Made by a program: the position numbers and the translations under genes. A stretch of 64,000 nt of DNA from Erysipelotrichaceae bacterium (GTDB lineage Bacteria > Bacillota_I > Bacilli_A > Erysipelotrichales > Erysipelotrichaceae), in NCBI GenBank assembly GCA_041736705.1, contig JBGSTC010000028.1:20768-84767 (forward strand), given 5' to 3'. Shown here one piece after another: positions 25,254-63,846 of the stretch; the first letter of the stretch is position 1; each line of letters opens with the position of its first letter. Below the pieces are notes generated by a model. That model ran no database searches and was not told where the DNA came from. It saw only the letters and a program-made list of their open reading frames with translations.

Positions 25254-25267
25254 AGGGGGAGTGACTC

Positions 25268-26560: not shown

Positions 26561-26578
26561 CTATGAAAGGGGCGGCCT

Positions 26579-27028: not shown

Positions 27029-27042
27029 GAAAGGAGAGTACT

Positions 27043-33336: not shown

Positions 33337-33346
33337 TCGATGAATC

Positions 33347-33373
33347 GGACGCTTCGGCGTCCTTTTCTTTTTC
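33347..33373 (+). terminator. Rho-independent terminator after the adhesin gene
   Basis: Hairpin ggacgcttcggcgtcc followed by ttttctttttc. Confidence 0.75.
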
Positions 33374-33440
33374 GCTCATGCGCCTTGTTATGCGATGCAC
33401 AAGAGAGTACAATGAACTTATCCTAGAATGGAGGAAGATC

Positions 33441-50007: not shown

Positions 50008-51360
50008 ATGGAACCGATGAAAGACTATACCCCCCAAGAACTATCTCAACTGCTGCAAACCAGACAATTCAGAACCCTCAGGGAAATCTTCGAAGAATAC
50101 AATATCGTCGACTTGGCTTCTTTGGTCGACAAGATGCCGGTGGATGAAATCACGGCGTTGTTTAAAATCCTCCCCAAAGACAAAGGGGCGGAACTTTTGT
50201 CTTACCTCGACCCCGATATCCTGGAAGACTTGACGAACAATTTCACGGTCGCCCAGATCGGCGGTCTGCTTGAGCATCTCTTTATCGACGACTTGAGCGA
50301 TATTTTGAGCGAACTTCCCGACGAATTGGTCAAGAAGGTTCTTTCCTCCGCCACCCCTGAACAGCGCTCCGACATCAACGCCTTATTAAGCTATAAGGAG
50401 AATTCCTGCGGGTCCATCATGTCGATCGACGTCGTCACGCTGAATGTCGGCGATAGCGTCAAAGAAGCGATGGCCACCATCAAAAAGCAAGGGAAGATGG
50501 CGGAAACCATCAACTGGTGCTATGTCGTCGAACCGAAAGGGAAGTTGATCGGCTATGTTTCCTTGAAAGACATCCTCTTTGCGAAAGACGACGCGATGAT
50601 CGAAGAGTTGATCGATTATGACGTACCCCATGTCAAGACGGAGGACGATCAGGAAAAAGCCGCCAAACTGATTTCGAAATACGACATCACGGCCATCCCG
50701 GTCACCGACTTGGAAGGCATCCTGCTTGGCATCATCACGGTCGACGACGTCTTGGACGTCGTGACGGAAGAAGCCACGGAAGACATCCAGAAAATGGCCG
50801 CCATCATCCCCTTGGAAGACTCCTATGTCGAGACGGGGATTTTCCCGATGTTTAAGTCGCGGATCACCTGGCTGCTCGTCCTCATGATTTCGGCGACCTT
50901 CACGGGATCCATCATCAACGCAAACAACCATCTTTTGGTTCATATCACCTCGTTAGCCATATTCATACCGATGCTGATGGATACGGCGGGCAATGCCGGT
51001 TCGCAATCCAGCACCATGGTCATCCGCGGCATCGTCGTCGACGACATGGGCGTCAAAGATTTCGTCAAGATCCTTTGGAAAGAACTGCGCGTCTCTTTCC
51101 TCGCCGGCGGCGTCTTGTTCGCCGTCAACACCTTACGTATCGGGATATTCATGCCGGAAGTCGGTTGGACCCTTGCCTTGGTCGTCTCGGCCACCGTGTT
51201 CATCGTCATCACCTTGGCCAACCTGGTCGGCGGATTATTGCCGCTTCTCGCCCTTGCGATGAAGCAAGACCCGGCAGCGATGGCATCACCCTTGATTACG
51301 ACCGTCATCGACGCGGTTTCGCTGACCGTCTATTTCATGATCGCCGCCGCGGTCCTGTAG
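50008..51360 (+). CDS. mgtE: Magnesium transporter MgtE (copy 1)
   Basis: N-terminal MgtE_N, two CBS domains and a C-terminal five-TM MgtE domain. RBS aaaggagag. Confidence 0.9.
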   Translation: MEPMKDYTPQELSQLLQTRQFRTLREIFEEYNIVDLASLVDKMPVDEITALFKILPKDKGAELLSYLDPDILEDLTNNFTVAQIGGLLEHLFIDDLSDILSELPDELVKKVLSSATPEQRSDINALLSYKENSCGSIMSIDVVTLNVGDSVKEAMATIKKQGKMAETINWCYVVEPKGKLIGYVSLKDILFAKDDAMIEELIDYDVPHVKTEDDQEKAAKLISKYDITAIPVTDLEGILLGIITVDDVLDVVTEEATEDIQKMAAIIPLEDSYVETGIFPMFKSRITWLLVLMISATFTGSIINANNHLLVHITSLAIFIPMLMDTAGNAGSQSSTMVIRGIVVDDMGVKDFVKILWKELRVSFLAGGVLFAVNTLRIGIFMPEVGWTLALVVSATVFIVITLANLVGGLLPLLALAMKQDPAAMASPLITTVIDAVSLTVYFMIAAAVL

Positions 51361-51375
51361 AACAGGAGGTGTACC

Positions 51376-52734
51376 ATGGAAAACAAACTGACATTCCTCG
51401 AACTTGAACAATTGGTGAAGGATCGCCGTTATCAAGCCATCCGCGACGCCTTCGACTACTACAACCTCGTCGACTTGACCAACCATGTCGAGAACCTCGA
51501 CCTCAACGAGATCCTGCTTCTCTTCAAAATCCTCCGCAAGGACATCACCGCGGAGATTTTCACGTATCTTTCCAGCGAAAAACAAGAAGACATCATCACT
51601 TCGTTCACCGGTCCGCAGATCGCCGGGATGCTTGAAAACCTCTACACCGACGACATCGTCGATTTCCTGGAAGAGATGCCGGCCAACGTGGTCAAACACA
51701 TCCTCACCAACGCAACCGCCGAACAGCGGGCAGAAATCAACCTGTTACTGAGTTATCCCGAAGATTCCGCCGGGTCGATCATGACGACCGATTTCGTCGA
51801 ACTCAAAGCCAGCGATACCGTCAAAAAGAGTATTCAAAAGATCAAACAACAGGGTAAAGTCGCCGAAACCATCAGTTACTGCTACGTGGTCGACGTCAAC
51901 CGTGTCCTTGCGGGTTCCATCAAGCTGCGCGACATCCTGTTTGCGGATGAGGACGAACTCATTTCCGTTCTGATGGACACCGACATCGTCTGTGTCACCA
52001 CCACCGACGACCAGGAACACACGGCGGCTTTGATCCGTAAATATGACGTTTCCGTCCTTCCCGTCGTCAACAACGAATCCCGCTTAATCGGGGTCATCAC
52101 CGCCGACGACATCATCGACGTCATCACCGAAGAAACCACGGAAGACATCCAGAAGATGGCCGCCGTCATCCCGACCTCCGATTCGTATCTTCGTACCGGG
52201 GTCTTGGAAATGACGAAAAGCCGGATCGCCTGGCTGTTGGTCCTGATGGTTTCCGCGACCTTCACCGGACTCATCATCCAAGGTTATGAAGTCCAACTCG
52301 CTTCCATCCCAGCACTGGCCGCCGCCATCCCCATGATCATGAGCACCGGCGGTAACGCAGGGTGCCAATCCAGCACCATGGTCATCCGCGGCATCGCGAT
52401 CGACCATATGCGCATCAAGGATTTCGGACTCGTCCTTTGGAAAGAACTCCGCGTCTCGATCGGGATCGGTCTTGTCTTATTCGTAGTCAACTTCTTCCGC
52501 CTCTGGATCTTCATGCCCAGCGATACGCTGATGACGGATCTGGTCATCTCGTTGACCCTGTTTCTCACCGTCATCCTGGCGAATCTTACCGGCGGCATCC
52601 TCCCCCTTGTCGCCCTGGTCTTCAAACAAGACCCCGCGGCGATGGCTTCACCGTTGATCACCACGATCGTCGACGCCCTGGCCTTGATCATCTACTTCAA
52701 CCTTGCGATGGCATTCTTGGGGAATTTGATGTGA
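51376..52734 (+). CDS. mgtE: Magnesium transporter MgtE (copy 2, tandem paralog)
   Basis: Same architecture as copy 1, roughly 50% identical. RBS aggagg. Confidence 0.9.
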   Translation: MENKLTFLELEQLVKDRRYQAIRDAFDYYNLVDLTNHVENLDLNEILLLFKILRKDITAEIFTYLSSEKQEDIITSFTGPQIAGMLENLYTDDIVDFLEEMPANVVKHILTNATAEQRAEINLLLSYPEDSAGSIMTTDFVELKASDTVKKSIQKIKQQGKVAETISYCYVVDVNRVLAGSIKLRDILFADEDELISVLMDTDIVCVTTTDDQEHTAALIRKYDVSVLPVVNNESRLIGVITADDIIDVITEETTEDIQKMAAVIPTSDSYLRTGVLEMTKSRIAWLLVLMVSATFTGLIIQGYEVQLASIPALAAAIPMIMSTGGNAGCQSSTMVIRGIAIDHMRIKDFGLVLWKELRVSIGIGLVLFVVNFFRLWIFMPSDTLMTDLVISLTLFLTVILANLTGGILPLVALVFKQDPAAMASPLITTIVDALALIIYFNLAMAFLGNLM

Positions 52735-53491: not shown

Positions 53492-53683
53492 ATGAAAGTG
53501 ATCTTGATCGTCCGCGATCTGAAGACCGAGGAAGATAAGGCGAAGATCGAAGAAGCCATGAATCAGACGAGGATCGATTTCACGGTCAGCCTGAACAATC
53601 ATTGCGTTTCGATCGAAGGCGGAAACGACTTGGTCTATACCGCGAAGACGGCGATCCGGGAAGCCGGATACACCGTCGAATAG
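53492..53683 (+). CDS. Small (63 aa) hypothetical protein, predicted ferredoxin-like betaalphabeta fold
   Basis: Short ORF 11 nt after deoD, followed by a terminator. No metal-binding CxxC. Confidence 0.4.
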   Translation: MKVILIVRDLKTEEDKAKIEEAMNQTRIDFTVSLNNHCVSIEGGNDLVYTAKTAIREAGYTVE

Positions 53684-53698
53684 ACTCACATAGATACG

Positions 53699-53727
53699 AT
53701 TCAGCGGTCTCGGCCGCTGAATTTTTA
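53699..53727 (+). terminator. Rho-independent terminator
   Basis: Hairpin attcagcggtc-tcg-gccgctgaat followed by ttttt. Confidence 0.75.
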
Positions 53728-53789
53728 ACTAAAGTACTTGCGTTCAAATACGTTTCATGGTAACATAAAAAAGCGCTGAAAATGCCTTT

Positions 53790-53882
53790 GGGGAAGTACT
53801 CAAGAGGCCGAAGAGGTGCCCCTGCTAAGGGCATAGGTCGGGTTAAACTGGCGCGAGGGTTCAAATCCCTCCTTCCCCGCCA
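53790..53882 (+). tRNA. tRNA-Ser (anticodon GCT), class II with a long variable arm
   Basis: Manual fold: acceptor GGGGAAG/CTTCCCC, anticodon stem TGCCC/GGGCA with loop CTGCTAA, long extra arm, T-loop GGTTCAAATCC, genomically encoded CCA. Confidence 0.85.
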
Positions 53883-53895
53883 TTTTCAAAAACAT

Positions 53896-53971
53896 GGTCC
53901 AGTGGTGTAGTGGTTAACATGCCTCCCTGTCACGGAGGAGATCGCGGGTTCGATCCCCGTCTGGACCGCCA
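53896..53971 (+). tRNA. tRNA-Asp (anticodon GTC)
   Basis: Acceptor GGTCCAG/CTGGACC, anticodon loop CTGTCAC, T-loop GGTTCGATCC, encoded CCA. Confidence 0.85.
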
Positions 53972-53975
53972 TTTT

Positions 53976-54049
53976 GCAGGTGTAGTTCAATGGTAGAACG
54001 CGACCTTGCCAAGGTCGACACGGGGGTTCGATTCCCCTCACCTGCTCCA
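53976..54049 (+). tRNA. tRNA-Gly (anticodon GCC)
   Basis: Acceptor GCAGGTG/CACCTGC, anticodon stem-loop CGACC-TTGCCAA-GGTCG, T-loop GGTTCGATTCC, encoded CCA. Its 3' end (tcccctcacctgctcca) is repeated downstream at 57661 and 59261. Confidence 0.85.
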
Positions 54050-54053
54050 ATGT

Positions 54054-54085
54054 CATTCAGGCCCTTAAGATGGGGCTTTTTTTGT
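54054..54085 (+). terminator. Terminator after the tRNA cluster
   Basis: Short GC hairpin (gccc…gggc) followed by a T7 run. Confidence 0.5.
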
Positions 54086-54318
54086 GCTCTGACTATACAT
54101 TGACTATACAAATCGATAAAATATCGCTAATTTATCGTGTTTCTTGAAGAATTGATGACTTTTAGACCCAAAAGTTCTAGATCGTTAAGCATGTTGCACA
54201 TGGATTTTTAATATGATAGTATATTATCAAGATACTCGGGGTGGGGGAGGTGAGATCACCAAATATAAACAATCACAGAATTGATTTCTGTCTTTTGAAT
54301 GTAAAAAGGAGTAGTTTT

Positions 54319-54705
54319 ATGAACTTCAAGAAGAAGGCAGTAGTCATCGCAATCATGATTATGATCATTCCAGTTATCAATGTTTTCGCAAATACTATTA
54401 CTATAAACCATACGGCGGGTCAAGTACTTGGTGTTGTTAGCGGAAGTTCACACGGTACGAAGTACAAAGCGACCAAATTAACAGCATCAGGCTGCGCCAA
54501 CTCAGCTGGAGAATACTCCGGATATGGAACTTCGCAATATGCATATTTGACAACTTCTAATACAGTTTGGGTTACACCAGAACCTGGGTTTGGACATTAT
54601 CATATGTATGTTGCGTTTTCAGGTATTCCAGATGATTTGCCTGCAGGTTCAAAATGGTCTCTAGATTACCTATATAATATCGGCCAGTTCCCAGTATACT
54701 ATTAA
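54319..54705 (+). CDS. Secreted small protein, putative lactococcin-972-family bacteriocin precursor
   Basis: A signal peptide (MNFKKKAVVIAIMIMIIPVINVFA) is followed by a G/S/T/Y-rich mature region. Local similarity to lactococcin 972 (GVSSAYSNYHHGSKTHSAT vs GVVSGSSHGTKYKAT). The gene context matches the Lcn972 operon: a large 7TM immunity/transport protein plus an ABC ATPase. RBS aaaaaggag. Confidence 0.5.
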   Translation: MNFKKKAVVIAIMIMIIPVINVFANTITINHTAGQVLGVVSGSSHGTKYKATKLTASGCANSAGEYSGYGTSQYAYLTTSNTVWVTPEPGFGHYHMYVAFSGIPDDLPAGSKWSLDYLYNIGQFPVYY

Positions 54706-54737
54706 ATAATCATTTAGCACTTAGGGAGGAATATGTT

Positions 54738-56783
54738 GTGAAGAAAAAGTTGATTCTATCGACGATTGTACTTTGCTTCTCTCTTAGTTTTTATGCAATG
54801 CAACGATTCAATGAGAAACTTTGGACACAGGTCAATGGGATGCCCTCAACAAATAAAATAGTCTTCACGATAAGTAGCAACAGCGAGTTCTCAAGAGCTG
54901 AACTCGTTAATCTACTCGTAAATGGAGCCAAGAAATTTGAAGTTGATTTAAAAACAGCATATTTCTCGAACGGAGTTTTAAGAGCCTATATGTTCCTTGT
55001 TGATCAAGAGAGCGCTTTTAGTCAAGTTCCATTGATTTTAACGTCTGAAGTTGACTTTGCTACTGTTGATCAAGATATATACCTTTCAACTGATAAGAAA
55101 GATCCGAACAGCTCCGGGTATCTTTACACGGTATTTCCATTAGGTGTATCCGTAGCAGAGTATCATTCATTCCACGACTTGATTTATGGAGATGCGCAAC
55201 TTTTTGGTTGGTATAATGCTTCTTCCGTTAACATTGAAAATGCTAAAGCATTCACGCAATACATTAAGAATTTATTACCTAATAATGTTCATATAGGGAG
55301 TGGCACATACGGCGAAACGAATGATGTGTCTTCTCGAAACGAAATTCTACTCATTTCGTTTTTACTTTTTGTCCTCTTGTTACTCATGGAAATTTCGAAA
55401 AATATGAAGGAGATTTCGTTACGTAAATCATTTGGAGAAAAGATTGAGAAGATTATCTATGATTTGTTTACTCCATTCTTTCTTACTACTTTAATTAGTG
55501 CTATATTGACATTCACATTTTCATATTGGATACTAATTCGCACCATAAATCGGTACACACAAGAATACATTATGCAACTTGGATTATATTTTTTACTGGT
55601 TATCGGATTGACTCTCATTTTATTGTCTGTTTTATGTTTGGTCGTATTCTTTGTTTCGCCGGTAAGTATCATCAAAAATCGGAGCATAAACCAATCAATC
55701 TCAAATTTCAATTTTGTACTTAAGATCGTCTTTATTGTATTCTTATTTCCCCAACTACTTGGATATGCTCGAAATTCGATCGATCAATCATCCGTTTTAG
55801 TTGAATATCTAAATTATGTGGATATCATAAAATCAAACATTAATCGAAGCGGGCTTAATCCAAATGCTAGTATTGTAGGTAATCAAGAAGAACAAATTGA
55901 ACAGTCACTGCAATATAATTATTACGGTATTAAGAATAGTGATTTTTTCATTACCTATAACGAACAAGATCTTCCGGATGAAATGTTACCTGATTCAAGA
56001 AAATATGTTAATTATATGTATGTTCAAATGACAAAAAATTACTTTAAATACTATCCCCTGGAAATAAAAGAAATTGATCTTGAAACAATCAATGAGCCGA
56101 TTCTGCTGGTTAGTCAGTTCAGAAGGAGAAACATTGGATTTACTTATAAATCAGTATGTTCTGAGTGTAAAATTATTGTCACTGAAACAGAATATAGAAT
56201 CCCTGATTTTACCGCTATGTTTCAAGCAAGTTATAAGAGTCCGTTGCTTGTAATTTACCCATCAATTCAAGATATTGTTAAGTTAACTGGAATTAAGTAT
56301 ATGCCATCCGGAGGATTTTACTATCATTCAATTAACCCGAATAAAGCGATTCTCAAACGTGATGAACTAACTGATTTCTTCGGGAACACTTGGATATTCA
56401 CCAATCAAGAGAGTTCGATTCGTCGAACCATTACTGAGTTATCGATTGCGACCTATTATTCAAACATTATCTTTTTACAGTGTTTAGCCGCCTTGATATT
56501 GATCATATTGCATGGTATCACCGTACTCTATGATCTCAATAAGAAAGAAATCGCTGTGCATTATCAAGTTGGGTATTCTTTCATTCAACGAAGCGCCTAT
56601 ATTGTGATTCAAGATGCAATATTGTTTATGTTGTTGGGAGGTTATCTTTTATTACAGAAATTCCACTTCATCGAAGCGGTCGTATATGCCTTGGGCATCG
56701 CTTTACTCAATCTAATCCTCGCCTCGATTCATCTATTACGAAACGAAAAGAATCAAGCTATCGAATCCATCAAGAATGGGTAG
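54738..56783 (+). CDS. Bacteriocin-associated integral membrane protein (Lcn972-operon type putative immunity/transport permease)
   Basis: 681 aa. N-terminal TM, large extracytoplasmic domain, then FtsX-like multi-TM regions. GTG start with RBS agggagga. Directly upstream of an ABC ATPase. Low GC, about 33%. Confidence 0.65.
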   Translation: MKKKLILSTIVLCFSLSFYAMQRFNEKLWTQVNGMPSTNKIVFTISSNSEFSRAELVNLLVNGAKKFEVDLKTAYFSNGVLRAYMFLVDQESAFSQVPLILTSEVDFATVDQDIYLSTDKKDPNSSGYLYTVFPLGVSVAEYHSFHDLIYGDAQLFGWYNASSVNIENAKAFTQYIKNLLPNNVHIGSGTYGETNDVSSRNEILLISFLLFVLLLLMEISKNMKEISLRKSFGEKIEKIIYDLFTPFFLTTLISAILTFTFSYWILIRTINRYTQEYIMQLGLYFLLVIGLTLILLSVLCLVVFFVSPVSIIKNRSINQSISNFNFVLKIVFIVFLFPQLLGYARNSIDQSSVLVEYLNYVDIIKSNINRSGLNPNASIVGNQEEQIEQSLQYNYYGIKNSDFFITYNEQDLPDEMLPDSRKYVNYMYVQMTKNYFKYYPLEIKEIDLETINEPILLVSQFRRRNIGFTYKSVCSECKIIVTETEYRIPDFTAMFQASYKSPLLVIYPSIQDIVKLTGIKYMPSGGFYYHSINPNKAILKRDELTDFFGNTWIFTNQESSIRRTITELSIATYYSNIIFLQCLAALILIILHGITVLYDLNKKEIAVHYQVGYSFIQRSAYIVIQDAILFMLLGGYLLLQKFHFIEAVVYALGIALLNLILASIHLLRNEKNQAIESIKNG

Positions 56784-56794
56784 GAGAAAAATAC

Positions 56795-57424
56795 ATGATA
56801 CTGGTTGAAGCGAATTCAATAGTTAAATCATATGGAAGTCAGAAGGTACTTAATGGGCTGTCCTTTAGCGTGGCAACAAACGAAATGGTAGCGATCATGG
56901 GTAAGTCTGGGACAGGGAAGTCAACATTGTTAAACATCTTGGGACTACTCGACAAACCAGATCATGGGGACTTGACATTATTTGACTTAATCAATGTCCG
57001 CCCATTTAGTTCAAAAGCTTCGAATATCCTGCGAAACAAAATCGGCTTTCTGTTTCAAAACTTCGCTCTTATCGACAATAAGACGGTCGAGTATAATATT
57101 GCACTGGCACTTAAGAATCGTCGAAAGATAAACAAAGCTGATGAAGTCGCAGGTGCGTTGAAAAAAGTTGGATTGGAAGGCTTTGAGAAAAAATACATCT
57201 ATCAATGCTCAGGCGGAGAACAGCAACGGATCGCAGTCGCTCGACTACTACTAAAACCATGCGAGCTGGTGTTGGCAGACGAACCGACCGGGAGTCTGGA
57301 TTTGCAGAATCGCGATGAGATCATTCGTCTCTTGTTACTGTTGAAAGAAGTTGGCAAAACCGTAATCATTGTGACACATGATCCGGAAGTCGCGAGTAAA
57401 TGTGATCGTACAATATTTCTTTGA
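56795..57424 (+). CDS. ABC transporter ATP-binding protein (bacteriocin export/immunity type)
   Basis: Walker A GKSGTGKST, ABC signature CSGGEQQR, Walker B LVLADEPTGSLD. 209 aa. Confidence 0.85.
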   Translation: MILVEANSIVKSYGSQKVLNGLSFSVATNEMVAIMGKSGTGKSTLLNILGLLDKPDHGDLTLFDLINVRPFSSKASNILRNKIGFLFQNFALIDNKTVEYNIALALKNRRKINKADEVAGALKKVGLEGFEKKYIYQCSGGEQQRIAVARLLLKPCELVLADEPTGSLDLQNRDEIIRLLLLLKEVGKTVIIVTHDPEVASKCDRTIFL

Positions 57425-57677
57425 AAATCCCCTCACCAGTTAGTTTTAGTGTACCATAAATGAATTGAGTGATGTTTAACAGGAGAACACCAGGTACCCC
57501 TAATGACGGGTAAAACCATTCGTTTACTTTAGTCAAGATCCAGTTACTGACTATACAATTGACTATACAATACGTTACTAAATCCAATTGAAAAGAAGGA
57601 AACTAAAGGATTTGGGGGGATTTAGAGGGGATAATAAAGTTTGACACAAAAACTATTAAATCCCCTCACCTGCTCCA
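57425..57677 (+). repeat. About 253-bp direct repeat, copy A (right arm of island 1)
   Basis: Near-identical to 59025-59277, with about 6 mismatches. It begins with aaatcccctcacc and ends with aaatcccctcacctgctcca. Contains tandem 11-mer tgactatacaa x2 and ggatttggggggatttagagggg. Confidence 0.85.
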
Positions 57678-57939
57678 TATGCATTTTAAGCCCTGAATAA
57701 AGGCTTTTTTTTGTGCCTATCAGTTCCAAAATTAACCATTGCTTTTTAAGCGGTTTTTCATATATTATTATGTGAGTATTACCTTCACAAAGAGAAGGAT
57801 CAAAATGTTGTAAACAGGTTTATAAATGGGAAAGTAGAATAGCGAAGACATCAATTGTTGTTTTGATCGTAGATTAGCATCAAGAACCATTCAAACAAGA
57901 AAGATTGACACCAGTTTAAGGTGCAAAAGGGGAACAAAA

Positions 57940-58746
57940 TTGAATATTGAAGATATTTTGTCAGCCGGATATGAGATGAAAGCTGCTGAAGCGGGTAGTT
58001 GGAGAATATATGATGAAGAGAATCCCATACCTGGATATTTTGAATTTGATTGGCTAAGCAGCCGGTTTCCCGATTTATATCATGAATTTGCGATATCCAC
58101 CATTGGACTAATAAACAAACTACATACAATCATCGACTTCTCAGAAATGCATGTTTTGGATGTAGGAGCCGGGACTGGAAGATCCTCAATTGAATTATCG
58201 AAACGGGCGAAAAAGGTCGATAGTACAGATGTCTATCGTTCGGTGATCGATTTTGGGAAAAATGAAATACAAAGATTAGGTATTCATAATATTGAATACA
58301 CGTATGGTGATCGTGATAAGCTTCCTTTTGATGATAGTAGCTTCGATGCTGTGGTTTTTTCATGGGCTGAACCAAATTACATAGAAGCATATCGTGTACT
58401 GAAGAACAATGGATACATTATTCAAATGGCATCCATACCTGAAGCGATATGTGGCGAGATAACCGATGTTTTACATGGGACAAATAGTAATGATCAGAAA
58501 ATATTCCTCTCAAGTTATCCTGATGAATTTGAGCAAAGAGACAATACAGTCTTTTCAAGTATTCCACTTGTTGGTTTGGTTGATGTACATCGCTTCACTT
58601 ATTTGTCAAAGTATAAGTCAACTGAAGAATTGGCATCAATTGTAGGCCGTCTTTATGGACCTAAAGCAAAAGAATATTTTACAACTCGCAAACAAGATAC
58701 TTATGCATGGAGAAATGAAATACTAATCGGACAAGTTGTAAAATAA
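57940..58746 (+). CDS. Class I SAM-dependent methyltransferase (Methyltransf_11-like)
   Basis: SAM-binding motif I (VLDVGAGTGRSSIEL) and motif post-I (…KKVDSTDV…). TTG start with RBS aaagggga. Low GC. Confidence 0.7.
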   Translation: MNIEDILSAGYEMKAAEAGSWRIYDEENPIPGYFEFDWLSSRFPDLYHEFAISTIGLINKLHTIIDFSEMHVLDVGAGTGRSSIELSKRAKKVDSTDVYRSVIDFGKNEIQRLGIHNIEYTYGDRDKLPFDDSSFDAVVFSWAEPNYIEAYRVLKNNGYIIQMASIPEAICGEITDVLHGTNSNDQKIFLSSYPDEFEQRDNTVFSSIPLVGLVDVHRFTYLSKYKSTEELASIVGRLYGPKAKEYFTTRKQDTYAWRNEILIGQVVK

Positions 58747-59024
58747 GGACTATTTTGGAATAAGTCGACTTTTTGTAGAGTCAAAATGATTAAGTTGTAT
58801 TAATACAAAAGGTGAATCACTGCCAAACAACAATTGTCGTGTGTGTTGGTATAAACGGTGCCATTGTTACTTTCTTGCAAGTAATCATAATATGTCATGT
58901 GATTTTCTGATTTGTGACTATACAATTGACTATACAAAAGGTGCGAGCCCGTGAAGACTGGTAAAGAATGGTAAAGAATATGCGGGGATTGAAGGGGATT
59001 GAAGGATTGGTTAAAGGTTATTTC

Positions 59025-59277
59025 AAATCCCCTCACCAGTTAGTTTTAGTGTACCATAAATGAATTGAGTGATGTTTAACAGGAGAACACCAGGTACCCC
59101 TAATGACGGGTAAAACCATTCGTTTACTTTAGTCAAGATCCAGTTACTGACTATGCAATTGACTATACAATACGTTATTAAATCCAATTGAAAAGAAGGA
59201 AACTAAAGGATTTGGGGGGGTTTAGAGGGGATTATAAAGTTTGACACAAAAACTATAAAATCCCCTCACCTGCTCCA
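59025..59277 (+). repeat. About 253-bp direct repeat, copy B (right arm of island 2)
   Basis: Exactly 1600 bp downstream of copy A. Same boundaries and internal motifs. Confidence 0.85.
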
Positions 59278-59288
59278 TCGCCAATCAA

Positions 59289-59316
59289 GTTCCGACGGAA
59301 CTTTTATTTTTGTAGA
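59289..59316 (+). terminator. Rho-independent terminator immediately after the distal att-like repeat
   Basis: Perfect hairpin aagttcc-gac-ggaactt followed by ttatttttg. Confidence 0.6.
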
Positions 59317-59389
59317 AATTCGTGGTAAAATTGGATCGTTCAGATTTAGCGATTTTATCATTAGAAAAAAATCACAGCGAAGGAGAAAA

Positions 59390-60190
59390 ATGAGCAAAAT
59401 TAAACTACATATCTTACCAGATGAAGACGATTTCGAAAGTGCCGAGGTCCATGTGTTCGCGACCGTCGAAGGAGACGAGTTCGAATTCTTGCTGGATACC
59501 GGTGCGGGGACAAGCAGTATCCGTAACAGCGAGTTCACGATGCATTATCCTGTGATGTATGTTAAAAAATCGGCAGGTGTATTCGCGCAACATGCAGATG
59601 ACTTGATCAAGATCCCGTCGTTCAAGTTGGGTCCGATCTTAAAAACCGGAGTCGAATTCTATCGGATCGACGGGGAAGTCGGCATGACGAACCTGATCGG
59701 GATGAACATCATGAAAGACTATGCCTTCTACTTCGACTTCAAAAACAACACGATGGAAATCAACCCGGATTCGACGCGTTATGCGAAAGACAGCCATGAA
59801 ATCATCCTGGATGAGAAATATCATCCCTATATCCCTGTGAAGTTCGACGATGAGGAAGTGCTGGCGGTATGGGATACCGGCGCAAGCATCACCGTGGTCG
59901 ACCATGGGTTCATCGCACTGCATACGTCCCATTTCAAACTCGTCGGCGAATCGACCGGAACGGATTCCACCGGTGAATCGATGCAGACGCCGCTCTATGA
60001 AATGAAGGGGATGAGCATCGACGGACATTTATTTCCAACGCATCATGTCGCAGGCGTCGACTTGTCGCTGATCAATTCGACGGTCGATACGAAGATGAAT
60101 CTGATCTTGGGGTATAGTACCTTACGCCATGCGGATTGGTGGTTCAATTTCCCAGGGAAGAAGTGGCGGATTACGAAGTTCAGAGGCTGA
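59390..60190 (+). CDS. Bilobed retropepsin-like aspartyl protease (two DTGA motifs in one chain)
   Basis: Motifs FLLDTGAGTSSI (lobe 1) and AVWDTGASITVVD (lobe 2), each in a roughly 120-aa retropepsin-like segment. RBS gaaggag. Confidence 0.65.
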   Translation: MSKIKLHILPDEDDFESAEVHVFATVEGDEFEFLLDTGAGTSSIRNSEFTMHYPVMYVKKSAGVFAQHADDLIKIPSFKLGPILKTGVEFYRIDGEVGMTNLIGMNIMKDYAFYFDFKNNTMEINPDSTRYAKDSHEIILDEKYHPYIPVKFDDEEVLAVWDTGASITVVDHGFIALHTSHFKLVGESTGTDSTGESMQTPLYEMKGMSIDGHLFPTHHVAGVDLSLINSTVDTKMNLILGYSTLRHADWWFNFPGKKWRITKFRG

Positions 60191-60207
60191 CAATCCAGTG
60201 ATAGATA

Positions 60208-60240
60208 CAAGCTCCCAAATAATCGGGAGCTTTATTATTT
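60208..60240 (+). terminator. Rho-independent terminator after the aspartyl protease gene
   Basis: Hairpin agctcccaaataatcgggagct followed by ttattattt. Confidence 0.7.
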
Positions 60241-60374
60241 ACTGTCATTCATACGAAGAGAGTGATAAAATACAAGTAAAGAAGAACGAAATCATTCACA
60301 ATATGCTTGCCACATCGTATGTACCGCCGCTAAAGGGAATCAGAAAGAAAACCTGAACCAAGATGGAGGAAACC

Positions 60375-61169
60375 ATGGGAAAGTCATCGCAAACCAGTCT
60401 GACGAGTGAGAAACGGGAGACGCTTTTGTCTTGGATCAAATCGATCGGATCATCCGGTGTCAAAGACATCAAGAAATCGATGCGGATCCTCTTAATCCAG
60501 CTGGCGATCTTCGCATCCTTTCAATTGATCTTTTGGTGGAATGTCAGTGCCAACATCATCCCGGCAGCCATACACGGTCCGATCGTTTTCTTGACGGCGA
60601 CGTATAACGACGTCATTCCGAAAACCCTGTACTGGGTGATTTTGTTTACCTTCGGCCGACGTTTGTTCAATAAGATCAAATCGATCGGATTCGCCAAAGC
60701 GATGGCGCCTGTACGTAACCTTGTCCCCGAACTGAAGTCCGCCTATGCCAGCCTGGGAGCCAAGGCGGTCTCGCTGGCTTGGTTTGGCGTGGGGGTTGGT
60801 CTAATCATCGCGAATAATTTCGCCTCGTACAGCCGCTTTAGCGGGGCGCGGAATAAGTTCGACAAGTACTTCATCGCGATTCTGATTTCCTTCACCATTT
60901 CCTATTTGCTTGGGGAAGGAAGGAAACATTGGATCTTCAAGTTCACACGGCTGCTTGTTTCCGATGTGACGCACGCCTTTCACATAAAGAATCATCATAC
61001 GGACAACCACACTTACGTCGCCTTGTCCGGATTCATCATCGGATTACTGGCGGACGCCCCTTTGATTCTGATGAAGAGCATGTATGGCGGTTATTACCTG
61101 GGTCTTGGATGCATCGCACTTGGGTTGATTCTTATTTTTTCGAAAGTGAATGCGAAGGTCCCGGGATGA
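60375..61169 (+). CDS. Polytopic membrane protein of unknown function (first gene of a coupled triad)
   Basis: Five to six predicted TM helices. RBS ggaggaa before the ATG at 60375. Stop overlaps the next start (ATGA). Confidence 0.6.
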   Translation: MGKSSQTSLTSEKRETLLSWIKSIGSSGVKDIKKSMRILLIQLAIFASFQLIFWWNVSANIIPAAIHGPIVFLTATYNDVIPKTLYWVILFTFGRRLFNKIKSIGFAKAMAPVRNLVPELKSAYASLGAKAVSLAWFGVGVGLIIANNFASYSRFSGARNKFDKYFIAILISFTISYLLGEGRKHWIFKFTRLLVSDVTHAFHIKNHHTDNHTYVALSGFIIGLLADAPLILMKSMYGGYYLGLGCIALGLILIFSKVNAKVPG

Positions 61170-62257
61170 TCCGACTCTACGACAAGAAATATCGTTATTA
61201 TGTATACTTCGATCCATTGACCGGTCAAGGGGCGAGAAGCAACGCTTACGATGAATACGGAAGGGATACCGGTGAAGACCCCTATCAGGCGAGTTTCCCC
61301 GAACTGCTGGATATCGGGATCATGGGCCATTGCGAGCATGGGAAAAGCGGACTCTGCCTTCAGTCCGGGGTGGAATGTTACCAAAACGGATTGGGGATCG
61401 AAGAGCCGAATATGCCGCTGGATCAGTTCAAACGACTGATCGACGAGTGTAAAGGCCGAACCTTCCAAGTCGCATTGGGTGGAAGGGGGGATCCCGACCA
61501 ACACGAAAACTTCGTCGAAATTCTGAAGTATGCCCACGCGAACGGCGTCGTTCCCAACTTCACGACTTCCGGCTACGGGCTGAAATCCGAGTTGATTCCA
61601 TACATCAAAGCCTATTGCGGCGCGGTTGCGGTGAGTTGGTATCGAAACGAATATACCCATAAAGCATTACGCATGTTAATCGACGCGGAGATCAAAACCA
61701 ACATCCACTTCGTGTTAAGCAAAGCCTCCATCGACGAAGCGATTGAGATGATCGAAGAGAATCGGATTCCAAAGGGTGTGAACCGCATCATCTTCCTTCT
61801 CCATAAGCCCGTCGGGCTTGGTTCCATCGCCAATGTCTTGGATGTGAAGGATGAACGTGTAAAACACTTCTTCAGTCTGATCGATCGTCCCGAAGTCGCC
61901 GATCGTTTGGGGTTTGATAGTTGTTGCGTCCCGGCGATTTTGAACTTCGCGAAGAACATCCATCCGATGTGCATCGAGGCCTGTGAAGCCGGTCGCTTCT
62001 CCGCCTACGTATCCCCGGATTTCGAATTGATCCCCTGTAGTTTCGAAAAGGATCCGAAATATGCCGTTTCCTTAACGAATTCGTCGATCGAAAAAGCCTG
62101 GAACAGTAAACCGTTCGAATCTTTCCGGAAACTTCAAGACGGGAAATGCATCGATTGCCCTTCCCGTACTTCCTGTTATGCCGGCTGCCCCATCGTTCCT
62201 AAAATCACGCTTTGTCCAACCGTAGATCCTCATCACGCAAGGGAGGTCGCACCATGA
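61166..62257 (+). CDS. Radical-SAM-like enzyme with a C-terminal SPASM domain and a non-canonical N-terminal Cys triad (CX7CX6C)
   Basis: GGE-type SAM motif (QVALGGRGDP) and a TTSGYG ribose motif. SPASM signature CIDCPSRTSCYAGCP (CX2CX5CX3C) plus upstream auxiliary Cys residues. Only candidate radical-SAM cluster is GHCEHGKSGLCLQSGVEC. Start at the internal ATG at 61166; the ORF-track start at 60929 overlaps the membrane gene. Confidence 0.6.
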   Translation: MIRLYDKKYRYYVYFDPLTGQGARSNAYDEYGRDTGEDPYQASFPELLDIGIMGHCEHGKSGLCLQSGVECYQNGLGIEEPNMPLDQFKRLIDECKGRTFQVALGGRGDPDQHENFVEILKYAHANGVVPNFTTSGYGLKSELIPYIKAYCGAVAVSWYRNEYTHKALRMLIDAEIKTNIHFVLSKASIDEAIEMIEENRIPKGVNRIIFLLHKPVGLGSIANVLDVKDERVKHFFSLIDRPEVADRLGFDSCCVPAILNFAKNIHPMCIEACEAGRFSAYVSPDFELIPCSFEKDPKYAVSLTNSSIEKAWNSKPFESFRKLQDGKCIDCPSRTSCYAGCPIVPKITLCPTVDPHHAREVAP

Positions 62258-63846
62258 AAATCAAAGCCGACTATGTCACCAATTCATCCAGCGAAGTGTT
62301 TGCGGTCGTTCTTCAAGACACGTTTGTCAGTGCCGCGCTCATCGCTTCCGCGGTATCCATCCTGCATGGCTTCAAGGTCGAACATGACCTGAAAAACATC
62401 AATGAACCGGTGGTCCTAAGTCTGATCGAAGATGCGCAAACGATTTCAAGAAGCATTGCGAAAGGCGTCGAAGAAGATGCGTTGCGACAAGAGGCGATGG
62501 TCAACGATGCCTATTATGTTTCCAAAACCACGCTGGATTCTAGCCGGTCGGTTTTGGAGCGTGAACTTGACGAGACGATGAAGACGGACGAGCTTGCGAA
62601 AGCGACCTATGGGGTCGAAAGCCAAGAATACCTGATGTTTATGAAAGACTGCGACGAGTACCAAGACTATCTCAACACGCAGCTCCAACAAGTCGATGCG
62701 CGTAAGAAAATCCTGGCGGATGAAAGTACGGCGTTCAACGCGAAACTCTCATCGATCAGCGAGGAAACCCGTACGATGCAAACCGAACTGATCGCCGTAA
62801 GGGAAGAAAAAGCGATGCTGGACGGGATTACGAAAGGATATCCGGAAGCAACCTATGACTTGGATCCAGTCCGGTTGAAACTGAGGGCTCTTGAAGAACG
62901 GGATCTTGAACTTAACGGGAAACTGAAGTCCGCTAATGCGAGTATCGAGTATCAGGCACAACGAAGGGATACGATCAAGGTCTCCGATGAGTCGATCCGT
63001 TTAGGGGACCAGTTGAAATCCAAGCAAGAGGAATTCGCGTCGGAAATGAAACGATTGGATACGGAGAAACGTAACCAATTGAAAGCCGAAACGCAGCGTC
63101 TGAAGGAGATCAAGTCCAATCTGGCGAAAGCCAAGGAAACCGGCGGCATCGATGAAACGAAGCAGGAGATCAATTTCTCGATGCAAGAGGGCGAAGGGTC
63201 GACGAACTTGATTCTGGAGGAATACAAGCAAAAGAGTCATGACCTCCAACTGAGAAGCGAAGAAGAAATGACACTACTGAGAAAGCAACAATTGAATCTC
63301 AATCGGCAGGATCTGACACGTAGCGCCATCGAAACATCGCAATATGGTACCGAATCCGCGATCGATGCCTTGCCGGATGTTTCGCAGGAATTCGGGATGA
63401 ACTTGAAGTTGATGTACAAGACATCCAAGGCATTGGCGGAAGGGATCAATGCGGGCAAAGAAGATCCAAAGCACGCGGCGAAACAAATCGCGAAGGGGAT
63501 CCTCAATGCGTCAAGTGAAGTGTTGAAAGACAAACTCGGATTCCTTCCATTCAGCGCCCACGCGGTAAACGCCCTCAACAACAGTCTGCAAAACGGATTG
63601 AACGCCTCGATCAAAGGGGAAAACGTACTCAAGGCGCTCTCCCAAGGATTGACGAAAGGTATCGCCGAAGCGGGATATGCCCAAGGGACGACGTTGATCA
63701 AGGAAGGTCTACCGCAAACCGACGGGAAGATCACTGAAGCGACGGACCAAACCGTTTCGACACTCCTCAACAACAACCCCCTCACGATGGATCTCTTCAA
63801 TCTACTGACCAAAGAGATCGGTGGCGATCGAATCGCGCAAGAATAG
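62254..63846 (+). CDS. Long coiled-coil protein of unknown function (third gene of the coupled triad)
   Basis: 530 aa, extended heptad-rich E/K/Q/L regions. Start ATG overlaps the rSAM stop (ATGA). RBS gggagg. Confidence 0.6.
   Translation: MKIKADYVTNSSSEVFAVVLQDTFVSAALIASAVSILHGFKVEHDLKNINEPVVLSLIEDAQTISRSIAKGVEEDALRQEAMVNDAYYVSKTTLDSSRSVLERELDETMKTDELAKATYGVESQEYLMFMKDCDEYQDYLNTQLQQVDARKKILADESTAFNAKLSSISEETRTMQTELIAVREEKAMLDGITKGYPEATYDLDPVRLKLRALEERDLELNGKLKSANASIEYQAQRRDTIKVSDESIRLGDQLKSKQEEFASEMKRLDTEKRNQLKAETQRLKEIKSNLAKAKETGGIDETKQEINFSMQEGEGSTNLILEEYKQKSHDLQLRSEEEMTLLRKQQLNLNRQDLTRSAIETSQYGTESAIDALPDVSQEFGMNLKLMYKTSKALAEGINAGKEDPKHAAKQIAKGILNASSEVLKDKLGFLPFSAHAVNALNNSLQNGLNASIKGENVLKALSQGLTKGIAEAGYAQGTTLIKEGLPQTDGKITEATDQTVSTLLNNNPLTMDLFNLLTKEIGGDRIAQE

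What the first reader, a model, noticed from the sequence alone, without database searches (positions are those of the whole stretch)
54026..59320. tRNA-Gly integration hotspot with two tandem islands delimited by direct copies of the tRNA 3' end
The last 17 nt of tRNA-Gly (tcccctcacctgctcca) recur as direct repeats at 57661-57677 and 59261-59277; the latter two are exactly 1600 bp apart. The repeats partition the region into island 1 (3.6 kb, lactococcin-972-like locus, about 33% GC against a roughly 50% backbone) and island 2 (1.6 kb, lone methyltransferase). Each copy is followed by a hairpin/T-run terminator. No tyrosine or serine recombinase is encoded anywhere in the window, so these look like integrase-less, satellite-like or decayed elements mobilised in trans.
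Basis: seen in the sequence. Interest (0 to 1): 0.65.

Follow-up and report, generated by a model that had tools for sequence, protein, structure and literature searches.

The report
Integrase-less phage-att islands at tRNA-Gly
Downstream of a glycine tRNA gene in an uncultured Erysipelotrichaceae bacterium sits a stack of small cargo islands (a bacteriocin/immunity locus and a methyltransferase) that carry the attachment-site arms of a temperate-phage family but no integrase, a familiar kind of "hitch-hiker" or decayed element that is unusually well documented here by comparison with related genomes.

Summary
The last 17 nt of tRNA-Gly(GCC) recur exactly at 57661 and 59261. The 1600-bp spacing comes from a 254-nt direct repeat.

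- In four related genomes and five metagenome contigs, the same tRNA-Gly end is followed by a terminator, a GACTATACA pair at +58, a tyrosine integrase with an arm-binding domain, and in most of them a CI-like repressor.
- A second GACTATACA pair always lies 112 nt upstream of non-tRNA core copies and marks the other prophage end.
- Island 1 carries both arms. Island 2 carries only right-hand arms. No recombinase is encoded in the window.
- Occupancy differs in every relative examined.
- Island 1 is 99.0% identical in a genome whose flanks are about 75% identical. It also occurs, at 94% identity, framed by tRNA-Gly(UCC) cores.
- Small cassettes recur in different orders, and some retain integrase fragments.

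These are CIME-like, prophage-derived islands that are att-flanked and integrase-less. They are probably moved by a phage integrase acting in trans or in cis, or swapped by homologous recombination through the conserved arms. No excision or integration event has been shown. This is a known kind of element, so interest is moderate.

The parts
53976..54049 (+). tRNA-Gly(GCC), last gene of a Ser-Asp-Gly tRNA cluster. This is the attB-bearing gene and it is intact.
   Evidence: ARAGORN. Rfam tRNA model, 69.6 bits.
54033..54049 (+). Core copy 1, TCCCCTCACCTGCTCCA. It comprises the last T-loop base, the 3' T-stem, the 3' acceptor stem, the discriminator base and CCA. Together with the P' arm it forms attL.
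   Evidence: Exact match, 0.01 expected by chance. Sequence read directly.
54050..54135 (+). P' arm of island 1. It holds an element-supplied tRNA terminator (54059-54085) and a pair of putative arm-type integrase sites, GACTATACA x2 with an 11-nt period, at 54091-54110, that is +58 from the core start.
   Evidence: Terminator called. Homologous to the sequence between tRNA-Gly and the integrase gene in the prophages or phage contigs L009 (90% over 62 nt) and L087 (95% over 42 nt). The motif lies at +58 in all P' arms found next to this core.
54319..54705 (+). Cargo gene 1: a 128-aa secreted protein with an N-terminal signal-like segment. It is the putative bacteriocin, but no family could be assigned.
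   Evidence: Translation. No Pfam, NCBIfam or PDB match. 96-98% identical copies in L007 and L158.
54738..56783 (+). Cargo gene 2: a 681-aa membrane protein with an FtsX-type permease domain and weak C-terminal similarity to the bacteriocin-associated 7-TM family (DUF1430/TIGR01654). It is the putative immunity or export component.
   Evidence: Pfam FtsX 29.2 bits and DUF1430 19.4 bits, below cutoff. TIGR01654 20 bits, below cutoff.
56795..57424 (+). Cargo gene 3: an ABC ATPase of the lactococcin-972-type bacteriocin exporter subfamily.
   Evidence: TIGR03608 L_ocin_972_ABC, 254.7 bits against a cutoff of 254.85. Pfam ABC_tran.
57425..57678 (+). 254-nt direct repeat, copy 1. It contains a truncated core TCCCCTCACC|AG (57428-57437), a 107-nt segment (57441-57547), a type-A P arm (57548-57660) with GACTATACA x2 at a 12-nt period (57549-57569, -112 from the core), and core copy 2 (57661-57677). 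It serves as attR of island 1 and as the left junction of island 2.
   Evidence: Repeat family D1. The P arm is 85% identical over 130 nt to the P arm next to the integrase-bearing phage contig L087, and 86-88% identical to L003. The -112 geometry is fixed in all loci found. Coordinates checked.
57688..57712 (+). Weak hairpin plus T8 after core copy 2, marking the left end of the methyltransferase cassette. No P' arm motif follows it.
   Evidence: Fold -7.8 kcal/mol with a 5-bp stem. Not called by the terminator scan. 75% similar to the hairpin after the tRNA (family D6).
57940..58746 (+). Cargo of island 2: a 268-aa class-I SAM-dependent methyltransferase of unknown substrate.
   Evidence: Pfam Methyltransf_25/11/31. 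Only sub-threshold NCBIfam hits. Copies at 93-95% amino-acid identity sit in different array positions in L003 and L095.
58915..59037 (+). Type-B P arm with GACTATACA x2 (58916-58936) and 10-nt direct repeats, ending in a truncated core TCCCCTCACC (59028-59037). This is the true right end of the methyltransferase cassette.
   Evidence: Homologous to arms that end in a full core in L010 (95% and 97% over two segments) and L084 (89% over 123 nt). The motif-to-core distance is again 112 nt.
59025..59278 (+). 254-nt direct repeat, copy 2. It has the same parts as copy 1, with arm motifs at 59149-59169 (one mismatch in the first unit), and ends in core copy 3 (59261-59277). This is attR of the whole array.
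   Evidence: 98% identical to copy 1 at a 1600-nt offset. Exact core match. Coordinates checked.
59287..59310 (+). Hairpin plus T-run after core copy 3. It is probably the original chromosomal tRNA terminator. Backbone GC resumes from here, and the Asp-protease-like gene follows at 59390.
   Evidence: Terminator scan. Fold z-score -1.9. GC profile. L004 homology resumes at 59380.

Best explanation
The 3' end of tRNA-Gly(GCC) in this uncultured Erysipelotrichaceae lineage is the attB of a family of temperate phages. Their tyrosine integrase has an N-terminal arm-binding domain.

**Structure of the phage attP**
- A P arm with a pair of GACTATACA repeats 112 nt upstream of the core.
- A 17-nt core identical to the tRNA end.
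- A replacement tRNA terminator.
- A P' arm with a second GACTATACA pair at +58.
- The int gene, and beyond it (seen in most of these loci) a CI-like repressor gene.

**What the window holds**

The window holds no phage. It holds a tandem stack of small, low-GC cargo units framed by these same att parts but lacking any recombinase.
1. A 3.6-kb bacteriocin/immunity-type island with both a P' and a P arm, that is, a complete attL/attR pair.
2. A 1.4-kb methyltransferase cassette with its own type-B P arm ending in a truncated core.
3. Two copies of a 233-nt att-only mini-unit.

**Origin and movement**

The units are CIME-like. They are remnants or streamlined derivatives of prophage ends, consisting of cargo that sat next to attR plus the att arms. 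I infer that they are still moved in one or more of three ways:
- by a cognate phage integrase supplied in trans, excising and integrating them as circles;
- in cis, when a prophage integrates beside them and excision uses the outermost att sites, so the cassette leaves as part of the phage genome;
- by cargo exchange between att frames through homologous recombination in the conserved arms.

**Shown versus inferred**
- Shown: the att anatomy, homology of both arms to integrase-bearing phages, absence of a recombinase, site polymorphism, and near-identical islands in divergent genomes and in a second tRNA frame.
- Inferred: that GACTATACA is the integrase arm site, that excision or integration of these units actually occurs, and how they travel between cells.
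For: 1. **Prophages at the same site.** In L009, L014, L016 and L019, tRNA-Gly is followed by a terminator, GACTATACA x2, and a minus-strand 355-380-aa protein with Phage_integrase plus Arm-DNA-bind_4 domains. An S24/HTH CI-like repressor follows it in L014, the one locus where that ORF was scanned. Metagenome contigs L103, L108, L127, L144 and L154 show the same layout; four of the five also show a CI-like hit, and L144 shows only the integrase.
2. **The P arm is the other prophage end.** In L151 and L094, a virion structural gene, a phage-family small protein and a DNA methyltransferase are followed by unassigned genes, then the P arm and the core. L087 has P arm, core, P' arm, int and CI contiguous, as in an attP.
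3. **Fixed geometry.** In the 34 of 73 metagenome loci that carry this core, the 22-nt motif (12-nt period) lies 112 nt upstream of a core, and the 21-nt motif (11-nt period) lies 58 nt downstream in all but three loci that have a 2-mismatch core. The repeats are at least 90% conserved across 28 distinct P arms and 16 P' arms, while neighbouring columns vary.
4. **Co-variation.** L021 has an integrase 46% identical to that of L016 at the same site, with a different direct repeat (GGCACTACATTGGCATTACA) in the same position.
5. **Arm homology.** The window's arms match the phage arms: the P arm is 85% identical over 130 nt to L087, and the P' arm is 90-95% identical to L009 and L087.
6. **No recombinase in 64 kb**.
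7. **Occupancy polymorphism.** L003, L004, L007, L010 and L013 all differ from one another and from the window.
8. **Horizontal transfer.** Island 1 differs from its L007 copy at 36 of 3628 positions with no indels (99.0% identity), while the flanks are 74-75% identical. A 94.4% copy in L158 is framed by tRNA-Gly(UCC) cores.
9. **Recurrent units in different neighbourhoods.** These include the 839-bp DMP19 cassette, the 1.33-1.37-kb methyltransferase cassette and an 806-bp cassette holding an integrase fragment.
10. **Decay intermediates.** Integrase fragments lie directly after cores in L151, L161, L160, L125 and L157.
11. **The concept is established.** CIMEs are elements that have lost their integration and transfer genes but retain attL and attR, and they form tandems by accretion (PMC5704250). 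Phage integrases have been shown to drive excision of accreted tandems (PMC13651849).
Against: - No excision product, circle junction or precisely empty site for this window's right junction was found. L004 has 7.4 kb of other genes there, and a scan of viral contigs for the predicted island-1 circle junction found nothing.
- No cognate integrase is known in this genome. Only 64 kb is available.
- Island 2 and most cassettes elsewhere lack P' arm sites: 27 junctions have a P arm and core but no P' motif, against 4 that have both. If this integrase needs P' sites the way lambda Int does, such units could not integrate on their own as circles.
- Between the GCC-framed and UCC-framed copies of island 1, homology starts near the P' motif and weakens across the 90-nt spacer between the P motif and the core. 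The core-proximal segments are swapped. That looks more like homologous exchange in the arms than integrase-mediated movement.
- All comparison genomes are MAGs or metagenome contigs. Conserved tRNA and arm repeats could cause chimeric joins.
Confidence: 0.75

Rival explanations
1. The units are inert scars. They are leftovers of repeated prophage integration and deletion and are no longer substrates for any integrase. Their presence in other genomes, and in the tRNA-Gly(UCC) frame, comes from uptake of DNA by transformation or transduction, followed by RecA-dependent homologous recombination through the conserved tRNA cluster and the conserved att arms.
For: - Integrase fragments in equivalent cassettes show that decay happens.
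- Most junctions lack P' sites.
- Between the two core frames of island 1, the core-proximal segments are swapped while cargo and arm motifs are shared, which is the pattern expected of homologous exchange.
- The tRNA cluster is about 98% identical across species and offers left-hand homology.
- RecA-dependent spread of phage-tandem fragments has been demonstrated experimentally in streptococci (PMC13651849 abstract).
Against: - The GACTATACA pairs and their exact 112-nt and 58-nt spacing are conserved in integrase-less units at a level well above neighbouring arm sequence. That suggests continuing selection for integrase recognition.
- The truncated-core junctions (type-B arm + TCCCCTCACC | AGTTAG...) sit exactly where a crossover inside the core would place them.
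- Island 1 has identical core-to-core boundaries in two genomes.
Confidence: 0.2
2. The repeats come from a duplication of the tRNA gene or tRNA operon, or from an assembly artefact, rather than from site-specific integration.
For: Several relatives (L010-L013, L015, L018, L023) do carry a second complete tRNA-Gly gene 136-1283 nt downstream of the first. Short-read contigs from the source-like sample break at these repeats.
Against: - In the window, identity to the tRNA is exactly 17 nt and stops there.
- Upstream of copies 2 and 3 lies phage P-arm sequence, not tRNA.
- The same arrangement recurs in dozens of independent assemblies.
- GC drops by 15 points between the copies.
Confidence: 0.02
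3. The islands are autonomous and encode an unrecognised recombinase or other mobility function among their cargo, for example the 128-aa protein or the methyltransferase.
For: The 128-aa protein has no family assignment.
Against: - The 128-aa protein has a signal-peptide-like N-terminus and sits in a bacteriocin-exporter operon.
- The other three genes have clear non-recombinase assignments.
- Cassettes with entirely different cargo share the same arms.
- The arms match those of phages that encode a conventional integrase.
Confidence: 0.03

Closest known systems
CIMEs (cis-mobilizable elements) and tandem accretion, described for ICESt1/ICESt3 in Streptococcus thermophilus and for tRNA-Lys islands in S. 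agalactiae (definition and references in PMC5704250)
   Same: - Islands that have lost their integration and transfer genes but keep attL and attR.
- They lie in tandem at the 3' end of a tRNA gene.
- A related autonomous element with the same att specificity can integrate beside them.
- Decay followed by accretion explains the arrays.
   Different: - Here the autonomous relatives are temperate phages, not conjugative elements.
- The units are very small (0.23-3.6 kb) and often carry a single gene.
- Most keep only the P-arm side.
- Cis-mobilisation has not been demonstrated.
[quoted passage not shown]
   Same: A phage-encoded integrase acts on a composite of tandem elements that share an att site. 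Homologous recombination serves as a fallback dissemination route.
   Different: Those tandems pair a full prophage with a full ICE and transfer by conjugation. Here the partners are gene-poor cassettes with no transfer machinery, and no helper is present in the window.
Tycheposon arrays in Prochlorococcus genomic islands (bioRxiv 10.1101/2020.12.28.424599)
   Same: tRNA-targeted elements stack in tandem, separated by partial tRNA copies. Newer arrivals push older ones outward. Degraded remnants and cargo make up most of the island.
   Different: Tycheposons are defined by their own integrase, and often by replication genes. The units here have neither, and their arms belong to a phage family.
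Phage satellites (PICI/SaPI-type islands). This comparison rests on general knowledge plus the description in the paper.
   Same: Small chromosomal islands that depend on a helper phage and sit at specific att sites.
   Different: Satellites encode their own integrase, regulators, replication functions and packaging-hijack functions. None of these is present here.
Integron gene cassettes and IMEX elements. This comparison rests on general knowledge only.
   Same: Recombinase-less units consisting of cargo plus a recombination site, stacked in arrays or inserted at one site by a recombinase encoded elsewhere.
   Different: The recombination sites are different: attC/attI with IntI, or dif with XerCD. 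No platform-encoded integrase or common promoter is present here.

Membership tests
CIME-like (att-flanked, recombinase-less island derived from an integrative element) | Flanked by attL and attR, that is, direct repeats of the core with arms homologous to those of an autonomous element | tested here: met
   Island 1 has core + P' arm at 54033-54135 and P arm + core at 57548-57677. Both are homologous to arms of integrase-bearing phages. Island 2 has P arms only.
CIME-like (att-flanked, recombinase-less island derived from an integrative element) | No integration, excision or transfer genes | tested here: met
   Pfam and NCBIfam on all island ORFs and on 42 window ORFs, plus tblastn with the cognate integrases, found no recombinase.
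CIME-like (att-flanked, recombinase-less island derived from an integrative element) | Derived from an ICE or IME | tested here: not met
   The autonomous relatives carry int, a CI-like repressor, virion genes and a phage-family small protein, so they are prophages. The term applies by analogy only.
CIME-like (att-flanked, recombinase-less island derived from an integrative element) | Mobilisable in cis or in trans by a related autonomous element | not testable with these tools
   Only indirect evidence is available: 99.0% identity against 75% flanks, cassettes adjacent to a prophage attR in L151 and L094, and a copy in a second tRNA frame.
tRNA-targeting temperate-phage integration module (lambda-type tyrosine integrase with arm sites) | Core identical to the tRNA 3' end, regenerating the tRNA | tested here: met
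   17-nt identity, with the tRNA intact.
tRNA-targeting temperate-phage integration module (lambda-type tyrosine integrase with arm sites) | Integrase with a catalytic domain and an arm-binding domain, encoded next to attL | tested here: not met
   Absent from the window. Present at the same site in L009, L014, L016, L019 and L021.
tRNA-targeting temperate-phage integration module (lambda-type tyrosine integrase with arm sites) | Repeated arm-type sites at fixed distances on both sides of the core | tested here: met
   GACTATACA pairs at -112 and +58, 7 copies against 0.08 expected. Binding by the integrase was not tested.
Phage satellite (PICI/SaPI-like) | Own integrase, a repressor/derepression module, and replication and packaging-interference genes | tested here: not met
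   The only genes are a secreted protein, a permease, an ABC ATPase and a methyltransferase.
Lactococcin 972-type bacteriocin locus | Structural peptide of the lactococcin 972 family | tested here: not met
   The 128-aa protein has no significant Pfam or NCBIfam hit and no PDB sequence hit below E = 0.04. Fold-level similarity was not tested.
Lactococcin 972-type bacteriocin locus | Dedicated ABC ATPase (TIGR03608) and 7-TM bacteriocin-associated membrane protein (TIGR01654/DUF1430), in the gene order peptide-permease-ATPase | tested here: inconclusive
   The ATPase scores 254.7 bits against a cutoff of 254.85. The membrane protein scores only 20 bits (cutoff 189) and 19.4 bits (cutoff 28.2). 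The gene order matches.
tRNA gene or operon duplication | Repeat extends over the whole tRNA or its 5' part | tested here: not met
   Identity is limited to 17 nt. Upstream sequence is phage P arm.

The most novel reading that the evidence does not exclude
The tRNA-Gly sites of this clade work as phage-integrase-driven cassette arrays.
- Each small unit is kept mobile by selection on just a P arm plus core, consisting of the arm-type sites at -112 and the 17-nt core.
- A temperate phage that integrates next to the array can then excise using a downstream cassette's attR and carry that cassette away as a new moron at its own attP-proximal end.
- This would be a site-specific route of moron capture and exchange.
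- Cargo would also be portable between two tRNA specificities, Gly-GCC and Gly-UCC, through the shared arm motifs.
- The truncated-core junctions and the duplicated 233-nt unit would be footprints of integrase activity on these recombinase-less sequences.
Probability: 0.25. Interest if true: 0.6.

Novelty: new member of a known kind. Interest (0 to 1): 0.4.

Why it matters
The locus gives a clean, sequence-level example, in an uncultured and little-studied Erysipelotrichaceae lineage, of how phage attachment sites organise accessory genes into swappable units. The cargo includes bacteriocin/immunity genes, a methyltransferase, a DMP19-like protein and copper-resistance genes.

The same 3.6-kb bacteriocin island sits at 99% identity in a genome whose flanks are only about 75% identical, and also in a second tRNA frame. 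Recombinase-less cargo therefore does circulate between genomes here.

If the cis-capture model holds, it would offer a concrete, testable mechanism for how temperate phages pick up and shed morons next to attP. Even so, tandem att-flanked remnants at tRNA genes, CIMEs and accretion are established concepts, so this extends a known theme rather than opening a new one.

Tried and rejected
- **Exact-protein look-ups** of the flanking and island proteins returned only short Logan contigs from SRR28170466 and SRR28170467. These break at the repeats and gave no context.
- **Rfam** on 53500-59600 found only the three tRNAs. The 254-nt repeat is not a known RNA.
- **GenBank phages.** The islands have no nucleotide match. 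The cognate integrase has only about 29%-identical relatives in cultured phages, so no named helper phage can be proposed.
- **Circle junction.** A viral-contig scan for the predicted island-1 circle or tandem junction found nothing. The same junction type (P arm, core, island-1-type terminator) does exist chromosomally in L003.
- **L093** looked like a free attP but turned out to be an IS-rich island with a truncated integrase. L087 remains the only attP-like configuration, and its contig has only 580 nt upstream of the P arm, so a free phage attP is not proven.
- **Motif false positives.** 39 of the 73 metagenome motif hits lack the GCC core. Several of these are simple 12-nt tandem arrays, coding repeats or other unrelated contexts. 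About 10 belong to the tRNA-Gly(UCC) sister family.
- **A truly empty site** matching the window's right junction was not found. L004 carries a 7.4-kb segment there.
- **Lactococcin 972 identity** of the small protein was not confirmed by sequence. Structure prediction was not attempted because it is peripheral to the finding.
- **tRNA duplication** was considered and rejected for this window.

Full report
**1. Observation**

The window carries a tRNA cluster: Ser(GCU) at 53790-53882, Asp(GUC) at 53896-53971 and Gly(GCC) at 53976-54049. The last 17 nt of tRNA-Gly, TCCCCTCACCTGCTCCA, recur exactly at 57661-57677 and 59261-59277. No further matches appear at up to 2 mismatches, and 0.01 are expected by chance. 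GC falls from 51.3% in the backbone to 36.4% between copies 1 and 2 and 35.8% between copies 2 and 3, and rises again after 59300.

Three details were missed.
- Copies 2 and 3 are the ends of a 254-nt direct repeat, 57425-57678 and 59025-59278, 98% identical. This is why they are exactly 1600 nt apart.
- That repeat starts with a truncated core, TCCCCTCACC followed by AG, at 57428 and 59028.
- The 9-mer GACTATACA occurs 7 times in the window, against 0.08 expected. All copies are on the + strand and in pairs: 58 nt after the start of core 1, and 112 nt before the start of core 2, the truncated core at 59028 and core 3.

**2. Genes**

Island 1 encodes three proteins:
- a 128-aa secreted protein with no family match;
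- a 681-aa FtsX-type membrane protein with weak DUF1430/TIGR01654 similarity;
- an ABC ATPase scoring 254.7 bits on TIGR03608 (L_ocin_972_ABC), against a cutoff of 254.85.

The exporter/immunity part is thus of the lactococcin-972 type, but the peptide is not recognisably lactococcin 972.

Island 2 encodes a class-I SAM methyltransferase of unknown substrate.

No recombinase was found in 42 window ORFs or by tblastn with the cognate integrases.

**3. Source and relatives**

A genome-collection scan with the left-flank nucleoside phosphorylase gene placed the window in uncultured Erysipelotrichaceae. The closest genomes are L003, a New Zealand groundwater MAG with 99% protein identity, and L004 with 95%. 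About twenty related species share the synteny MgtE, PNP, orf63, tRNA-Ser/Asp/Gly.

**4. The site is a phage attB**

In L009, L014, L016 and L019, tRNA-Gly is followed by a terminator hairpin, GACTATACA x2 at +58, and a minus-strand 355-380-aa protein with Phage_integrase and Arm-DNA-bind_4 domains. In L014, the locus where the next ORF was scanned, an S24/HTH CI-like repressor follows. Five metagenome contigs show the same layout, four of them with a CI-like hit as well.

The other phage end is visible in L151 and L094. There a virion structural gene, a phage-family small protein and a DNA methyltransferase are followed by unassigned genes, then GACTATACA x2, 90 nt of spacer and the core. The IMG/VR contig L087 has P arm, core, P' arm, int and CI contiguous, as in an attP.

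A collection-wide motif scan found 73 metagenome loci, of which 34 combine the motif with this core. In those, the 22-nt version (12-nt period) lies 112 nt upstream of a core. The 21-nt version (11-nt period) lies 58 nt downstream in all but three loci that have a 2-mismatch core. In alignments of 28 distinct P arms and 16 P' arms, the repeat pairs are the most conserved blocks.

L021 has an integrase 46% identical to that of L016 at the same tRNA, with a different direct repeat in the equivalent position. This is the co-variation expected of arm-type integrase sites. Binding itself is inferred, not shown.

**5. What the window's units are**

- The left end of island 1 (54050-54135) is homologous to the phage P' arm: 90% to L009 and 95% to L087.
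- The 130 nt before cores 2 and 3 are homologous to the phage P arm: 85% to L087.
- Island 1 therefore has a complete attL/attR pair but carries cargo where the phage would be.
- The methyltransferase cassette has its own, different P arm (type B, 58915-59027). In L010 and L084 this arm ends in a full core. Here it ends in TCCCCTCACC joined to AGTTAG..., the start of the second copy of the 254-nt repeat.

The array reads as follows:

tRNA::core1 – P' – bacteriocin cargo – truncated core – 233-nt unit (107 nt + type-A P arm) – core2 – weak terminator – methyltransferase – type-B P arm – truncated core – 233-nt unit – core3 – chromosomal terminator.

The truncated-core junctions lie exactly where a crossover inside the first 10 nt of the core would put them. 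I read them as footprints of site-specific or microhomology-mediated recombination. Two scenarios fit: reinsertion of a 233-nt circle, or deletion from a second copy of island 1. I cannot distinguish between them.

**6. Polymorphism and mobility**

- L003 carries three different units at the site: a 1347-bp unit, an 839-bp DMP19 cassette and a 90%-identical methyltransferase cassette. They lie where L004 has only about 96 unmatched nt, and the two genomes are collinear on both sides.
- L010 has a 2045-bp island where L013 has none.
- Downstream of the same prophage end, L151 and L094 carry different cassettes.
- Recurrent constant-size units occur in different neighbourhoods: the DMP19 cassette (839 bp, three loci), the methyltransferase cassette (1334-1367 bp), and an 806-bp cassette holding an integrase fragment.
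- Integrase fragments directly after cores in L151, L161, L160, L125 and L157 show how such units arise by decay.

Most telling is island 1 in L007. It differs from the window copy at 36 of 3628 positions, with no indels and the same core-to-core length (99.0% identity). The flanking chromosome is only 74-75% identical.

A third copy, 94.4% identical, lies in metagenome contig L158. It is framed at both ends by TCCCATCATCCGCTCCA. This is the 3' end of tRNA-Gly(UCC), which is the attB of a sister phage lineage whose integrase is 56-58% identical to that of L014 and which uses the same GACTATACA motif. Homology between the two frames begins near the P' motif and weakens across the spacer between the P motif and the core. 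The cargo and arm motifs are therefore shared, while the core-proximal segments are swapped.

**7. Mechanism**

The best-supported reading is that these are CIME-like units derived from prophage ends. They can be acted on in three ways:
- by a cognate integrase supplied in trans;
- in cis, when a phage integrates beside them and excision uses an outer attR;
- by homologous exchange through the conserved arms.

Junctions with a P arm and core but no P' motif outnumber those with both by 27 to 4. This fits the cis model, in which a cassette needs only its own P arm and core, because the phage supplies attL. It also fits simple decay.

The core-frame swap argues that homologous recombination in the arms contributes. 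None of these steps has been observed directly. No circle junction was found, no helper is known in this genome, and all comparison sequences are metagenome assemblies that could in principle be chimeric at repeats.

**8. Comparison with known systems**

The anatomy matches the published definition of CIMEs and tandem accretion (PMC5704250). The differences are that the autonomous partners are phages rather than ICEs, and that the units are very small. Phage-integrase-driven excision of accreted tandems, with homologous recombination as a fallback, has been reported for phage-ICE tandems (PMC13651849). Stacking of tRNA-targeted elements separated by partial tRNAs is known from tycheposons. The units are not satellites, because they have no int, replication or packaging genes. 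They are not integron cassettes, and they are not a tRNA duplication, although several relatives do have a second full tRNA-Gly gene.

**9. Verdict**

This is a new example of a known kind of element, in an uncultured lineage, with good comparative evidence that recombinase-less cargo circulates. Interest is moderate at 0.4. The more novel reading, a phage-att cassette array that feeds moron capture, is not excluded. I give it about 25% probability.

Noticed in passing
L158 4912-8569; L114 1092-2340; L159; L093; L119; L132; L153: A sister element family uses the 3' end of tRNA-Gly(UCC), TCCCATCATCCGCTCCA, as its core. It has the same GACTATACA arm motif, with P at -112 and P' at about +70, and an integrase 56-58% identical to that of L014. 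The bacteriocin island exists in this frame too. L119 has a divergent lactococcin-972-type cluster (ABC ATPase 63% identical) next to such a P arm.
   Followed up: partly
L106 2568-2848: tRNA-Gly core, P' motif and P motif lie only 113 nt apart. This is an 'empty' att-only mini-element with no cargo at all. The contig ends just before the expected second core.
   Followed up: no
L007 14909-20441: The island following the bacteriocin island in L007 is a 5.5-kb integrase-less copper/iron unit encoding a P-type ATPase, CueP, a SHOCT-domain protein and an FTR1 permease. It ends in a degenerate P arm and a core with 3 mismatches.
   Followed up: partly
L003 12613-13452; L097 493-1332; L110 1066-1905: An 839-bp single-gene cassette encoding a DMP19-like protein recurs at constant length in three assemblies. 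A similar-sized minus-strand ORF follows tRNA-Gly copies in L010 and probably L013. The gene is on the minus strand and shares a possibly bidirectional terminator with the upstream core.
   Followed up: partly
L004 11333-18699 and L003 14809-20708: A 7.4-kb segment lies between the tRNA-Gly array and the Asp-protease-like gene in L003 and L004 but is absent from the window. It encodes a 1144-aa protein with no Pfam match and a 713-aa DUF7507 protein. In L004 it begins with a decayed P'-like terminator and motif, so it may be an older island. No right-hand core remnant was found.
   Followed up: partly
window 58950-59027 and 57600-57645: The P arms contain short direct repeats between the arm motif and the core. 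Type B has TGGTAAAGAA x2 and GGGGATTGAA x2. Type A has GGATTTGGGG and TTTAGAGGGG. There is also an inverted repeat, GAGGGGAT...ATCCCCTC, that includes the start of the core (pair I6). These are candidate excisionase or host-factor sites.
   Followed up: no
window 59390-63846: Immediately right of the array lie a clan-AA aspartic-protease-like gene, a 268-aa protein and a 544-aa protein with no Pfam match, and a SPASM-domain (radical-SAM-type) protein. This may be a peptide-maturation cluster.
   Followed up: no
window 19441-35393: A baeRF-family protein, a transglutaminase-like protein, T2SS-F/T2SS-E-type pilus-assembly genes and a BTAD regulator are followed by a 2103-aa surface protein with VWA, Big_9 and cadherin-like repeats and by an SPFH-domain protein.
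   Followed up: no
window 50008-52734: Two tandem MgtE-type magnesium-transporter paralogues about 53% identical to each other, conserved in most relatives.
   Followed up: no
L016 8720-9160: In one prophage an RNase H gene sits between the P' arm and the integrase gene. This shows that cargo can also be inserted on the attL side.
   Followed up: no
L091, L096, L131, L134, L152 (metagenome loci): Long tandem arrays of a 12-nt unit (CAACTGACTATA-like) match the arm-motif pattern but have no tRNA core or integrase nearby. They appear to be unrelated simple repeats.
   Followed up: no
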